A stretch of DNA of 64,000 nucleotides from Hormiphora californensis (taxonomy: Eukaryota > Animalia > Ctenophora): positions 4,526,001 through 4,590,000 of the forward strand of contig CM035358.1 of the NCBI GenBank assembly GCA_020137815.1, given 5' to 3'. The position numbers and the translations under genes are program-made. Positions 11,241 through 54,013 of the stretch are shown here, one piece after another. The notes beneath the pieces were generated by a model. The model did not search any database. It saw only the letters and a list, made by a program, of their open reading frames with translations, and was not told the DNA's origin. How positions within the stretch are numbered: position 1 is the first letter of the stretch; the number at the start of each line of letters is the position of its first letter.

Positions 11241-12254
11241 TCAGAGTGCCCCAAAAAAGACACCGTTTGCCTGAGGCAGATCACCAGACGCCGTCCCGCC
11301 AATCTCATTTCCCTCTGTACACTCTTTAATCACGTCTACCATTGAGCTACTCTCCCCAAAAACAGGCAAAGATTTCACACCGTCACTCATCACCCTCCTA
11401 GCAAGGGAAATCTCAGTCTCCAGAACCCTTCTTCTATCATCCAACTTGGCGGGATAATCAACGGTGAGATTCCTGGAAAATGCCATGAGTTCTGGGAACC
11501 CCCCACTCACACCCATGTCATGTAAAACACGCTCAAACACGGCACTGTCCGTGGGGTTCTTGTCCAACTCACGGCGGAGAGCTTCAGAAAACCGGATGAG
11601 ATAGTCACGGAGGGTAGTTGAGAGAAGGGACAGAGCGTCTGAGGAGGCGGTGACAAAACCCGTGTAACAAAGACATGTTGCTGCGGTTTTTCGGAGGAGC
11701 AACGTTGCTGTTTCGGGGGATATCTCAGGAATTTCAACAAGTTGAACGTTAGTTGTCGGGGTGGGTGGCGTGGTCATTGGTAGAGTTAGGGATGGAGAGG
11801 GAGGTGTTGAACCAGGAACTGACCGAATCAGAGAATACTGGTCCCTGATTGGCTGATAACCAGTCACGTGACCTAAATAACGAGTTCTGATTGGTTGTTT
11901 ACTTGTGTCGGTCGGTTCCTGTGTTGAACTCAGATCTCCTCTCTGGATCTTCTTCTGGAGGACCCGCTTCTGGGCTGCCAGGTCTCGGTTTTGTCTGATT
12001 AACCCTATGGACTGGTGAACGGTATTTTGATCACCCCGAGGAATTGCAATTGTATCAGTCCTGGGGGTAGTAGGCAGGTTAGGAGGAGGAGGGATGGTCT
12101 GGGTTTTGGTGAGGTGGATATCCGCGGGGGTTATGTTGGCGAAGGTGTTGTCGATGGGGGGTCCTGTATCGAGTGCACCCCACAAGCCTCCCGATCCTCT
12201 GTTGGCAGCATTGGGTTTGGTAACATTTGGTTTGGTAACATTTGGTTTGGACAT
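11241..12254 (-). CDS. SUPT7L: SAGA complex subunit SUPT7L/STAF65gamma-like (bromodomain-associated histone fold), with an in-frame MITE insertion
   Basis: N-terminal LWG and HQSIGLIRQNRDL resemble SUPT7L YWG and HTIQLIQHNRRL; histone-fold segment LLRKTAATCLCYTGF...DALSLLSTTLRDYLIRFSEALR...VFERVLHDMG. ATG at 12254 is preceded by TTTAG. Confidence 0.8.
   Translation of the reverse strand: MSKPNVTKPNVTKPNAANRGSGGLWGALDTGPPIDNTFANITPADIHLTKTQTIPPPPNLPTTPRTDTIAIPRGDQNTVHQSIGLIRQNRDLAAQKRVLQKKIQRGDLSSTQEPTDTSKQPIRTRYLGHVTGYQPIRDQYSLIRSVPGSTPPSPSLTLPMTTPPTPTTNVQLVEIPEISPETATLLLRKTAATCLCYTGFVTASSDALSLLSTTLRDYLIRFSEALRRELDKNPTDSAVFERVLHDMGVSGGFPELMAFSRNLTVDYPAKLDDRRRVLETEISLARRVMSDGVKSLPVFGESSSMVDVIKECTEGNEIGGTASGDLPQANGVFFGAL
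11813..11921. mobile_element. 109-bp hAT-like MITE inside the SUPT7L ORF
   Basis: CAGGAAC...GTTCCTG termini with 8-bp TSD TGTTGAAC (11805-11812 and 11922-11929). Confidence 0.9.
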
Positions 12255-12800
12255 TCTAAAGGGAGAATTCATTTGGTTTGGTAACATTTGGTTTGGTAAC
12301 ATTTGGTTTGGACATTCTAAAGGGAGAATTCATTGGGTTTGGTAACATTTGGTTTGGTATCATTTGGTTTGGTAACATTTGGTTTGGTAACATTTAGTTT
12401 GGTAACATTTGGTTTGGACATTCTAAAGGGAGAATTCATTTGGTTTGGTAACATTGGGTTTGGTAACATTTAGTTTGGTAACATTTGGTTTGGACATTCT
12501 AAAGGGAGAATTCATTTGGTTTGGTAACATTGGGTTTGGTAACATTTGGTTTGGTAACATTTGGTTTGGTATCATTTGGTTTGGTAACATTTGGTTTGGT
12601 AACATTTGGTTTGGTAACATTGGGTTTGGTAACATTTGGTTTGGTAACATTGGGTTTGGTAACATTTGGTTTGGTATCATTTGGTTTGGTAACATTTGGT
12701 TTGGTAACATTTGGTTTGGTAACATTTGGTTTGGTAACATTTAGTTTGGTAACATTTGGTTTGGTAACATTTAGTTTGGACATTCTAAACAGAGAATTCA
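12213..12800 (-). repeat. 15-bp minisatellite with higher-order units repeating the SUPT7L acceptor plus ATG
   Basis: (TTTGGTTTGGTAACA)n interspersed five times with GGACATTCTAAAGGGAGAATTC or a variant (minus strand: GAATTCTCCCTTTAG|AATGTCC). Confidence 0.9.
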
Positions 12801-52600: not shown

Positions 52601-54013
52601 TCTCTCTCTCTCGCTCTATCGCATCGCTCTCCCTAGCTCTCTTACTCCGACTTCTCTCCTGCTCTGCTTCTCTCTAGCTCGTCTCTCGCTCTACCTGACT
52701 ATCTCTACTCCGCATCCATATCTCGCTACTATCCATAGAAAGAAGGACAGCATGTCAATGTCCATGTGACAGTTAGCGAATGACGGGACCACACAATGAG
52801 CAACACAACTATTTAATATGCAAAACAAAGTGAACAAGCACGATAATAATTATGAGTTACGACACAAACTGGACAGGTTAACACATCAACACTTCAGAAG
52901 GATTAACTCAATATAACATACTTAACAGGATATATTCTAAAAGCACAATACCAGCAAGTGTCGATCTGAGCGCACTGTCTGTTTGAGAATAAAAAGCGGT
53001 CTAGCGAAACCAGCTCAGCGAGTGTGTAATTGTACTCACGATGCTTTTACGAGTAGTTCCTTGTTAGTAGCCAATTCCTTTTCCAAGTTCTCTTTTTCCA
53101 CTTTCAGGGCCACGTTCTGGAGGGTTATCATTTGGTTTGGAATATCCAAAACACTAACAGTTTGATACCAACAACTAACAAGCTTATATTGATTGCATTA
53201 ATACTCCCTTCCAGGGAACATTTGCAAACCAATCGTAATGCGATGGGACACAGCTAGTTGTCGTTCTCTTAGTTAAAGGAACAAACTCTCCCTGTTGCCA
53301 TGTCCGTTTTTGCGGGCCTTCCCACATCTAAGTTCCGGAGTATGACCCATCTAAATTTGTATATTACCTCCTGAAGTGGATCAAAGTGTTCCACACTGGA
53401 AACTTTACTGAGAGTAGTCTCTAGATAGTAGATCTTCAGCTTGAGAGAGAAGTTCTCTTTCTTTAAATCTGCCATCATCTGTGCGGAAACATACTGGGGG
53501 ATGACCGTTAGTTCGGGGCAAACAGATGGGGGGAAACATACTGGGGGATGACTGTTAGTTCGGGGCAAACAGATGAGGGAAACATACTGGGGGATGACCG
53601 TTAGTTCGGGGCAAACAGATGGGGGGAAACATACTGGGGGATGACTGTTAGTTCGGGGCAAACAGATAGGGGGAAACATACTGGGGGATGACCGTTAGTT
53701 CGGGGCAAACAGATAGGGGGAAACATACTGGGGGATGACTGTTAGTTCAGGGCAAATCGATGAGGGGGGACAGATGTGGGAAACAGATGGGGAAAACAGA
53801 TAGGGGGACAGATATACTGGGGGAACAGATGTGGGAACAGATATTGAAATACTGGGGGAACAGACTGAGAGGAGGGGGAATAAAAGGGCTACTGTAATTA
53901 CCCACCTTGGCAGTCTCCTCCTTCACATTTCTACCCCCGGTCAGGAAGGGAGATGGAGGTCGGGTTGGAAGTGTGAGGCCAGGTGGCACAGAAGATGGTC
54001 TCTCCCCTGCCAT
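40653..54013 (-). CDS. CDK5RAP2: Centrosomin/CDK5RAP2/myomegalin-like coiled-coil protein, multi-exon (~20 exons, not all resolved)
   Basis: First exons splice to GGRNVKEETAK|MMADLKKENFSLKLKIYYLE...|NVALKVEKENLEKEL...ELLVKAS, matching the CM1 gamma-TuRC-binding motif. Many coiled-coil exons follow; C-terminal VIDTETVLREAHKSLE resembles the end of CM2. Confidence 0.8.
41154..41385 (-). repeat. Tandem copies of an intron 3' end in the CDK5RAP2-like gene
   Basis: Minus strand CCCCTCCACAGAGGCTCACTCACCCCTCCCC repeated, ending at the functional CCCCCACAG|ACGCGTGTG (41153). Confidence 0.8.
42509..43748 (-). repeat. 34-bp minisatellite (~35 copies) made of branch point, acceptor and exon start
   Basis: Minus unit CCTAACCACCCCTCCCCTACAG|GAGCTATCCCAA; the real exon begins CAG|GAGCTATCCACG (ELSTTEC...) at 42517, in phase with the donor at 43856. 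Confidence 0.93.
44483..44817. mobile_element. Near-perfect 335-bp hairpin element with CCC...GGG ends and apparent 2-bp TSD (EnSpm/CACTA-like)
   Basis: TG|CCCCCATAAAAAAGTCGCTTGGC...GCCAAGCGACTTTTTTATGGGGG|TG. Confidence 0.75.
48291..48390. repeat. (GAT)n microsatellite, intronic
   Basis: Direct sequence; lies just inside a GTGATA donor on the minus strand. Confidence 0.95.
50105..50507. repeat. Two long (GA)n microsatellites; others at ~45500-45720, 46320-46372 and 52400-52570
   Basis: Direct sequence. Confidence 0.95.
50994..51950 (-). repeat. 37-bp minisatellite made of an acceptor plus ~17 nt of exon
   Basis: Minus unit AACCCCTGACCCCTCTCTAGTCAGATACTGCCGAGTT; the last copy continues as coding DTAELRDELEELREAMIR...KDQIIQ|GT. 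Confidence 0.9.
53486..53860 (-). repeat. ~47-bp tandem repeat of branch point and pyrimidine tract upstream of the CM1 exon
   Basis: Minus unit CCCCATCTGTTTGCCCCGAACTAACGGTCATCCCCCAGTATGTTT; ends next to ...TCCGCACAG|ATGATGGCAGAT (53478). Confidence 0.85.

What the first reader, a model, noticed from the sequence alone, without database searches (positions are those of the whole stretch)
12213..53860. Minisatellites here are tandem amplifications of 3' splice sites ('acceptor arrays')
Seen: about nine unrelated tandem repeats share one architecture (12213-12800, 24030-24927, 26030-31740, 36240-36337, 41154-41385, 42509-43748, ~43945-44002, 49148-49333, 50994-51950; 53486-53860 is a near case). 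Each unit copies the local intron end (often a CTAAC/CTGAC branch-like motif, pyrimidine tract and YAG), usually plus 4-35 nt of the following exon. Each array lies on the intron side and ends at the acceptor that gives the in-frame conserved protein. Unit sequences differ between loci, so this is not one transposon family, and I saw no equivalent arrays at 5' donors. Inference: either a locus-independent mutational process preferentially duplicates acceptors (slippage or R-loops at skewed tracts, with only intron-side expansions tolerated), or there is a functional system such as recursive splicing, decoy acceptors or tunable splicing/trans-splicing efficiency. Either way the spliceosome must skip up to ~160 decoy AGs. 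I know of no description of this as a genome-wide class.
Basis: partly seen in the sequence, partly recalled or inferred. Interest (0 to 1): 0.9.

Follow-up and report, generated by a model that had tools for sequence, protein, structure and literature searches.

The report
Acceptor-only mirage repeats in comb jelly
In this probable comb-jelly DNA, the end of an intron plus the first bases of the next exon has been copied head-to-tail, separately at about one in seven splice acceptors and at no donor; such repeats ('mirages') are already known from lancelets and are likely harmless by-products that the cell probably skips by splicing to the last copy, so only the one-sided bias is new.

Summary
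The arrays are real. The window is probably from a pleurobrachiid-type ctenophore (spliced-leader genes 43/44 to the Hormiphora leader). In my hand-built gene models, 8 of 61 acceptors and 0 of 51 donors carry intronic copies of their own junction (Fisher p=0.008). 13 of 45 minisatellite clusters end at an acceptor (2.2 expected) and 2 start at a donor (1.8 expected). Spliced contigs of a relative and orthologous proteins place the junction at the last copy, or just after it, for five arrays. No RNA of this organism itself was found. The kind is known: amphioxus 'mirages' and human F7/CBS minisatellites, and this scan has met it in many other genomes. The title overreaches: 32 of 45 clusters are elsewhere, and 9 of 10 arrays sit in two genes. 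Best reading: local duplication of C-rich intron ends, neutral expansion, tolerated because the copy next to the intact exon wins. No unit has the AG|GT that recursive splicing needs. New here: the acceptor-only bias, the density, and two arrays at probable trans-splice acceptors.

The parts
12209..12800 (-). A1: 15-nt coding repeat (KPNVT) with 4 extra acceptors in higher-order units; used acceptor AG|AATG at 12255, probably a trans-splice acceptor of a SUPT7L-like gene (label recalled; no Pfam hit)
   Evidence: ortholog P0002 aligns from the Met at 12254
24030..24927 (+). A2: 32-nt unit x28; used acceptor AG|CCATG at 24918, start of an SLC38A9-like transporter gene; probably a trans-splice acceptor; 28 ATGs in the array
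   Evidence: boundary from the reading frame and start codon only
25972..31740 (+). A3: ~35-nt C/T-rich unit, 5.7 kb, 128 YAG decoys; used acceptor at 31735; preceded by a 24-nt doublet at 25972-26027
   Evidence: join MVT-I|FSLWN matches P0001
35985..36345 (+). A4: 37-38-nt unit x2.7 plus an older copy cut off by an inverted-repeat insertion (about 36040-36235); used acceptor 36334
   Evidence: RYVGS matches P0001
41154..41390 (-). A5: 24-29-nt unit, almost intron-only; used acceptor 41153 of the centrosomin-like gene
   Evidence: spliced contigs of a relative join 41582 to 41153; P0123
42505..43750 (-). A6: 34-nt unit x35 with a CTAAC branch motif; used acceptor 42517
   Evidence: boundary from reading-frame continuity
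43940..44020 (-). A7: two copies 34 nt apart, bounded by GAGTTG microhomology; used acceptor 43950
49148..49420 (-). A8: 147-nt duplication with 35 exon nt, plus short C-rich AG-ending units; used acceptor 49181
50990..51960 (-). A9: 37-nt unit x25; used acceptor 51010 (or 51006); the upstream exon link was not resolved
53479..53865 (-). A10: intron-only 47-nt and 13-nt units filling 387 of 427 nt; the used AG (53478) lies 15 nt after the last unit AG
   Evidence: relative's spliced contig joins 53906 to 53478; exon hits Pfam Cnn_1N
55541..55586 (+). short AG-less repeat ending 21 nt before the DNALI1 acceptor 55607
56923..56995 (+). decayed 28-nt C/T repeat ending at acceptor 56996
58712..58838 (+). 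decayed two-copy duplication of a pyrimidine tract, 98 nt apart, before acceptor 58839
59214..59259 (+). AG-less TATCTTTC repeat 13 nt before acceptor 59272
32798..32828 (-). AG-less 11-nt repeat 17 nt before the first acceptor (32781) of a nested gene
40640..54013 (-). host: centrosomin/CDK5RAP2-like coiled-coil gene, six arrays in 20 modelled acceptors
24918..36743 (+). host: SLC38A9-like amino-acid transporter gene (label recalled; ortholog has Pfam Aa_trans), three arrays in 7 modelled acceptors; its middle is missing from the window

Best explanation
These are locus-specific tandem copies of intron 3' ends ('mirage' minisatellites) that likely arose by short local duplications, likely grew as ordinary unstable repeats, and are probably tolerated because splicing would use the last copy, the only one joined to an intact exon. 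Step 1 (inferred): a 25-150 nt piece spanning the pyrimidine tract, the AG and a few exon bases is duplicated between short microhomologies (GAGTTG in A7, TGGTAAC in A2, CCGAG in A9). Step 2 (inferred): slippage and unequal exchange expand and homogenise the array; the C-rich, strand-skewed intron ends of this animal put G-runs on the template strand, which would favour this at acceptors and in the longest arrays. Step 3 (shown by sequence): decoys are as strong as the used site, so the choice cannot lie in the acceptor itself. Step 4 (inferred): exon-centred recognition (downstream donor, exon enhancers) selects the last AG, and rare decoy use gives stops or upstream ATGs that are degraded or silent. 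Step 5 (inferred): duplications lacking a complete last acceptor are purged, which explains why every array lies on the intron side.
For: Units derive from their own locus and are not dispersed. Edge units diverge while inner units are homogeneous, and A1 and A6 show higher-order structure, as described for mirages. Microhomology at array edges (read by eye); microhomology-mediated duplication is reported as common and mostly neutral (abstract of PMC13167724). Plain acceptors are C-richer than donors (0.27 vs 0.19, p=9e-7) and array acceptors more so (0.35, p=0.008); 6 of 10 arrays reach G4Hunter -1.6 or lower. AG-less repeats also gather at acceptors (A10, 55541, 59214, 32798) while donor-side repeats are at chance level, which points to where repeats arise and not only to which survive. 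In 9 of 10 arrays at least one decoy scores as high as the used site (102 of 128 in A3); 9, 9, 6 and 2 decoys are identical to it over -20..+6 in A2, A9, A6 and A1. Six of 10 arrays have no in-frame, stop-free decoy. An exon-centric proximity rule is documented in human. Mirages leave splicing normal in amphioxus.
Against: No RNA of this organism was available, so use of the last copy is not shown directly; X1 is under 90% identical. Three-mer complexity and longest direct repeat do not differ between plain acceptors and donors (p=0.5 and 0.2), so acceptors are not richer in seeds by those measures. Four arrays (A1, A2, A4, A7) have little G4 potential, and the C-richness of array acceptors is partly circular. 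Six measurable host introns were only 40-241 nt before expansion; for such short introns the human rule predicts the upstream AG, so the first duplication should often have been harmful. Non-array acceptors at 55-64 kb are as C-rich (0.31) as those at 24-54 kb yet carry no clear array, so composition alone does not explain the clustering.
Confidence: 0.6

Rival explanations
1. Selective asymmetry: duplications arise equally at both intron ends, but the spliceosome prefers the downstream copy at both ends, so donor duplications lengthen the exon and are purged while acceptor duplications only lengthen the intron.
For: Seeds are equal at both ends by two measures. In human short-intron contexts the downstream donor is preferred, and a long-upstream/short-downstream architecture behaves like exon definition at acceptors. 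Introns here are short (median 163 nt, 35 of 48 at most 250 nt).
Against: Repeats that contain no splice dinucleotide would be harmless at either end, yet they gather at acceptors (4 or more cases vs 2 at donors; small numbers). Human F7 and amphioxus tolerate donor arrays with the upstream site used.
Confidence: 0.2
2. Functional device: the arrays act as decoy acceptors, recursive-splicing ladders or tunable sinks that set mRNA level through unproductive splicing or trans-splicing.
For: Decoys keep complete acceptors. Some decoys would add in-frame, stop-free pieces (A4 75 nt; A5 54 and 99; A6 36; A10 15 and 108). A2 has a donor-like GTAAC 5 nt after each AG. Six arrays fall in one gene.
Against: 0 of 10 units has AG|GT. 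No shared motif beyond acceptor consensus. Unit lengths are mostly not multiples of three. A continuum down to decayed and AG-less repeats. An insertion interrupts A4.
Confidence: 0.08
3. Mild positive selection: extra branch points and pyrimidine tracts raise U2AF/U2 loading near weak acceptors, so such expansions are favoured.
For: AG-less tract and CTAACC repeats near acceptors; 6 of 10 used array acceptors score below the median of plain acceptors.
Against: All ten used sites are within the normal score range (5.6-14.6; plain median 9.3, tenth percentile 2.2); a 5.7-kb array far exceeds any such need.
Confidence: 0.08
4. Assembly artefact: long-read errors or mis-joins inflated the repeats.
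For: Noisy stretches inside A3 and A9; about 290 residues of the transporter are missing from the window; raw reads could not be checked.
Against: Variant units recur in ordered higher-order patterns, edges are diverged, an insertion interrupts A4; an assembler has no reason to favour acceptors; the same structure is confirmed by resequencing in amphioxus.
Confidence: 0.04

Closest known systems
Amphioxus 'mirage' minisatellites (Adh3, globins BflGb6/BflGb9, troponin C, PGBD5); PMC3087553 and PMC3902484, passages read; Canestro et al. 2002 known only through these
   Same: Locus-specific tandem copies spanning an intron/exon boundary, extra copies intronic, splice dinucleotides kept, unit 10-160 bp, homogenised centre with divergent edge units.
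   Different: Amphioxus has them at both 5' and 3' boundaries with 2-7 copies in the passages read; here only at acceptors, up to about 160 periods, at about one in seven acceptors, two probably at trans-splice acceptors.
Human exon/intron-spanning VNTRs: F7 IVS7 (37 bp), CBS intron 13, 6-16, lamin B2, PDGF; PMC1557585, passages read
   Same: Identical splice sites reiterated in the intron; the copy touching the intact exon is the main one used.
   Different: All are donors, the mirror image of this window; single loci in a large genome.
Microhomology-mediated tandem duplication (PMC13167724, abstract and outline) and internal tandem repeats at exon-intron boundaries (PMC2812944, passages)
   Same: Proposed birth mechanism; mostly neutral; can create cryptic sites or new introns.
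   Different: No splice-site polarity is described in what I read.
Recursive splicing ratchet points (recalled)
   Same: Repeated acceptors inside an intron.
   Different: Ratchet points need AG|GT and sit in very long introns; here 0 of 10 units has AG|GT.

Membership tests
mirage minisatellite | tandem unit spans an intron/exon boundary | tested here: met
   8 of 10 arrays copy 4-42 exon nt; A5 1 nt, A10 none
mirage minisatellite | unit derived from its own locus, not a dispersed family | tested here: met
   best outside match 20-23 of 33 nt within the window; rest of the genome not held
mirage minisatellite | extra copies lie in the intron and keep the splice dinucleotide | tested here: met
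mirage minisatellite | minisatellite unit length (10-160 bp) with concerted evolution and divergent edges | tested here: met
   periods 15-147 nt; edge units differ in A2, A3, A6, A9
mirage minisatellite | normal mRNA is spliced at the authentic site | tested here: inconclusive
   only a relative's contigs and orthologs; no RNA holder listed for this DNA
mirage minisatellite | copy number varies between haplotypes | not testable with these tools
   no second haplotype, genome or reads
recursive splicing ratchet point | AG followed directly by GT | tested here: not met
   0 of 10 units
recursive splicing ratchet point | saw-tooth nascent RNA and lariats at internal sites | not testable with these tools
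   no raw RNA reads
transposon-derived satellite or introner | shared unit family, terminal inverted repeats, dispersed copies | tested here: not met
   similarity between array acceptors (mean 6.6, max 15) is close to that between plain acceptors (6.2, max 15; p=0.045), no dispersed copies
spliced-leader trans-splice acceptor (A1, A2) | leader joined at this AG in mRNA | tested here: inconclusive
   AG lies 1-2 nt before the start codon with no upstream exon modelled; leader shown 9 nt before the DNALI1 start in a relative and 5-14 nt before starts in L002 and L005; not shown for A1 or A2

The most novel reading that the evidence does not exclude
Across this ctenophore genome, mirage arrays form a common class found almost only at acceptors, trans-splice acceptors included, because its spliceosome picks the most downstream of many identical 3' splice sites even in introns that began at 40-240 nt. 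That would mean exon-centred 3' site choice in one of the earliest-branching animal lineages, against the proximity rule for short introns, with thousands of natural competition assays in one genome.
Probability: 0.3. Interest if true: 0.7.

Novelty: new variant of a known kind. Interest (0 to 1): 0.4.

Why it matters
Each array is a natural competition between identical or equally strong acceptors, so ordinary RNA-seq could show how a non-bilaterian spliceosome, and probably its trans-splicing machinery, chooses a 3' site. If the bias is genome-wide it also shows a route by which short introns grow from their 3' end and supplies raw material for new introns, as proposed for mirages. In practice such arrays mislead gene predictors and short-read assemblies. 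If the bias fades outside these two genes, the finding is an ordinary new record of mirages.

Tried and rejected
Whole genome: none held, so no genome-wide test. Sequencing runs: no RNA holder listed for 20000-26000; one run (X1) by species label, share 0.00; laid twice at 80% likeness, all 4 and 9 laid contigs under 90% identical. Orthologous genomic locus in metagenomes: 594 pattern matches, none confirmed. MITE pattern scan gave 5 short loci of 1.0-2.3 kb, at least three transcript-like, none with an acceptor array; too little to test anything. Homolog search with a central coiled-coil exon: nothing among 4189 candidates. The exon(s) between 53040 and 51010 and between 46842 and 44411 could not be fixed. 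The 14 microsatellite-like clusters, set apart, show no bias (1 at an acceptor, 1 at a donor). R-loop driver rejected on strand composition; single transposon family rejected; recursive splicing rejected on motif. The repeats at 10745-10795 (branch-like on the minus strand) and 33410-33462 (donor-like GTAAG) adjoin no modelled exon. Papers that gave nothing useful: PMC8724738, PMC6823432; Turri et al. 1995 not held. No earlier notes on this genome. No supplements were read; those of PMC3087553 and PMC8527503 may bear on copy numbers and repeat annotation.
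Full report
Source. The window is animal DNA of about 44% GC with short GT-AG introns (median 163 nt over 48 modelled introns). 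Two genes at 2815-2858 (+) and 2344-2301 (-) match, at 43 of 44 bases, the spliced leader printed for the ctenophore Hormiphora californensis (passage; scan), each followed by GTAAG. The best protein hit to the ORF at 11244-12254 is an EukProt model, P0002 (219 of 268 aligned residues identical), whose 'sb' id I recall as a Pleurobrachia bachei gene model. I infer a pleurobrachiid-type ctenophore. No genome is held, so everything below rests on one 64-kb window.

Gene models. I modelled exons by hand and checked that the joins read without stops: a centrosomin-like gene (Pfam Cnn_1N), an SLC38A9-like transporter (ortholog P0001 with Aa_trans), a SUPT7L-like gene (label recalled, no Pfam hit), TMEM129, DNALI1, a B9 gene and five others. 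This gave 61 acceptors and 51 donors. The models were made with the arrays in view, so they are not blind. Exons at 46.8-44.4 kb and 53.0-51.0 kb and the middle of the transporter were not modelled. Independent support for array junctions: P0001 continues MVT-I|FSLWN (A3) and matches RYVGS (A4); P0002 aligns from the Met just after the last A1 acceptor; contigs of run X1, a relative under 90% identical, run from 41153 into the exon ending at 41582 (A5; loose end 21 of 30 alike by eye), from 53478 into the exon ending at 53906 (A10; 24 of 30) and from 53368 into the exon starting at 53116. A2 and A6-A9 rest on reading frame alone.

Observation. All ten arrays exist. Eight copy 4-42 exon bases, A5 one base, A10 none. 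With an 18-nt junction probe, 8 of 61 acceptors and 0 of 51 donors have an intronic copy (Fisher p=0.008); A5 missed at 13/18. A looser 11-mer test gives 13 of 61 and 0 of 51. Of 59 TRF clusters, 14 microsatellite-like ones were set apart (1 at an acceptor, 1 at a donor); of the other 45, 13 end at an acceptor (random placement 2.2; 0 of 2000 reached 13) and 2 begin at a donor (1.8 expected) (binomial p=0.01). Among the 17 with score 100 or more it is 9 and 0. So the bias is real in this window. Limits: 32 of 45 clusters lie elsewhere; nine of ten arrays sit in two genes; 9 of 29 acceptors at 24-54 kb have one against 0 of 24 at 55-64 kb; at gene level the test is 5 of 11 against 0 of 10, p=0.035.

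Anatomy. Units are unrelated to one another and have no dispersed copies in the window. Centres are homogeneous, edges diverged; A1 and A6 show higher-order duplication; an inverted-repeat insertion splits an older copy off A4. That argues against an artefact, though the middle of A3 and the far part of A9 look unpolished and I count 128 YAG decoys in A3, not 160. Short direct repeats bound the arrays where this can be read (A7, A2, A9). Removing the arrays leaves introns of 40-241 nt in the six cases that can be measured. A1 and A2 end 1-2 nt before a start codon. In the relative, a leader is joined 9 nt before the DNALI1 start, and two ctenophore-like transcripts in metagenomes begin with the leader just before the start, so A1 and A2 are probably trans-splice acceptors; this is not shown.

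Which AG is used. A weight matrix from the 51 plain acceptors scores decoys as high as the used site in 9 of 10 arrays, and A1, A2, A6 and A9 have decoys identical to it over 26 nt. The choice must therefore come from outside the acceptor. Six arrays have no in-frame, stop-free decoy; A4, A5, A6 and A10 have one or two near the end. Use of the last copy is required by the conserved protein but is not shown by RNA of this organism. An exon-centric proximity rule is documented for human alternative sites, but the same paper says short introns favour the upstream acceptor (passages). That is a real tension with the short ancestral introns here and is the most interesting point. I recall that Reed and Maniatis saw a switch to the outer duplicated site when the exon beside the inner one was shortened, which is the situation of these decoys; I could confirm only their proximity rule in print.

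Why acceptors. Plain acceptors are C-richer than donors (0.27 vs 0.19) and array acceptors more so (0.35); six arrays have strong G-quadruplex potential on the template strand, four do not. G4-driven minisatellite instability is established in yeast (search listing and abstract starts). Against a purely mutational account, complexity and short direct repeats are equal at plain acceptors and donors, and the array-free region is as C-rich. For it, AG-less repeats, harmless at either end, still gather at acceptors. I put mutation bias plus tolerance at 0.6, purging of donor copies at 0.2, a regulatory role at 0.08, selection for tract dosage at 0.08 and artefact at 0.04. No unit has AG|GT, so recursive splicing in its known form is excluded.

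What is known. Tandem repeats spanning intron/exon boundaries are published as 'mirages' in amphioxus, at both boundaries, without effect on normal splicing, and were suggested to be general in cephalochordates (passages of PMC3087553; PMC3902484). Human donors carry the mirror image (passages of PMC1557585; see also PMC2812944). I reached this reading before consulting the scan's notes, which list 20 and 53 such findings in at least 7 and 9 other genomes; one reports donors hit as often as acceptors, another that an acceptor preference was not established. None names a ctenophore, and those notes are unchecked. Searches showed no ctenophore case and no genome-wide acceptor bias in their listings; most subscription papers are outside the library. 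The Hormiphora paper reports 13% tandem repeats and, in the passages read, does not link them to splice sites.

Verdict. Observation confirmed with a narrower title; interpretation partly supported. It works like a mirage and meets the four membership features I could test. The variant part is the acceptor-only polarity, the density, and probable trans-splice acceptors, all from one window. Interest 0.4; 0.7 if the bias proves genome-wide with last-copy use (probability 0.3).

Noticed in passing
window 2301-2344 (-) and 2815-2858 (+): Two spliced-leader genes (43/44 to the Hormiphora leader, each followed by GTAAG) face away from each other inside a long inverted repeat, about 2200-2950.
   Followed up: partly
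window 11813-11921: A MITE with at least six copies in the window sits in the SUPT7L-like coding exon, adds 38 codons without a stop, and is absent from ortholog P0002. It is either translated or spliced out. The same MITE is embedded in many predicted proteins and in 3' UTRs (L002, L005).
   Followed up: partly
window 34415-36333: Residues 187-479 of the transporter ortholog P0001 have no match in the window; the 1.9-kb gap cannot hold them. Deletion or assembly collapse.
   Followed up: partly
window 8335-9008: An inverted-repeat element with TTAA at both ends interrupts the reading frame of an unknown secreted-type gene; its left end offers a GTAAGA donor but no in-register AG is obvious.
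   Followed up: no
window 33410-33462 (+): Octamer array of donor-like GGTAAG units inside a transporter intron, adjoining no modelled exon.
   Followed up: partly
window 32140-32781 (-): Two-exon gene with a signal-peptide-like start nested antisense in a transporter intron; no Pfam hit.
   Followed up: partly
window 38400-40560 and 35480-35970: Large palindromic element built of GGCGCC 10-mers; the one long minisatellite not at an acceptor.
   Followed up: no
window 44412-44900 (-): Decayed CTAACC branch-like repeats before acceptor 44411, split by an inverted-repeat insertion; no AG copied.
   Followed up: partly
window 52110-52094 (-): Possible 17-nt microexon that would bridge the phases between centrosomin exons at 53040 and 51006; speculative.
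   Followed up: no
window 28550-31000, 51400-51950, 57080-57900: Stretches that look like unpolished long-read sequence.
   Followed up: no
run X1 on window 40560-42530 and 52780-56890: Carries the same species label as the window yet all laid contigs are under 90% identical and its leader end differs; a mislabel or a cryptic species.
   Followed up: no
window 1-1200 and 9470-10200: Fragments that look like LINE reverse-transcriptase DNA (by eye; not searched).
   Followed up: no
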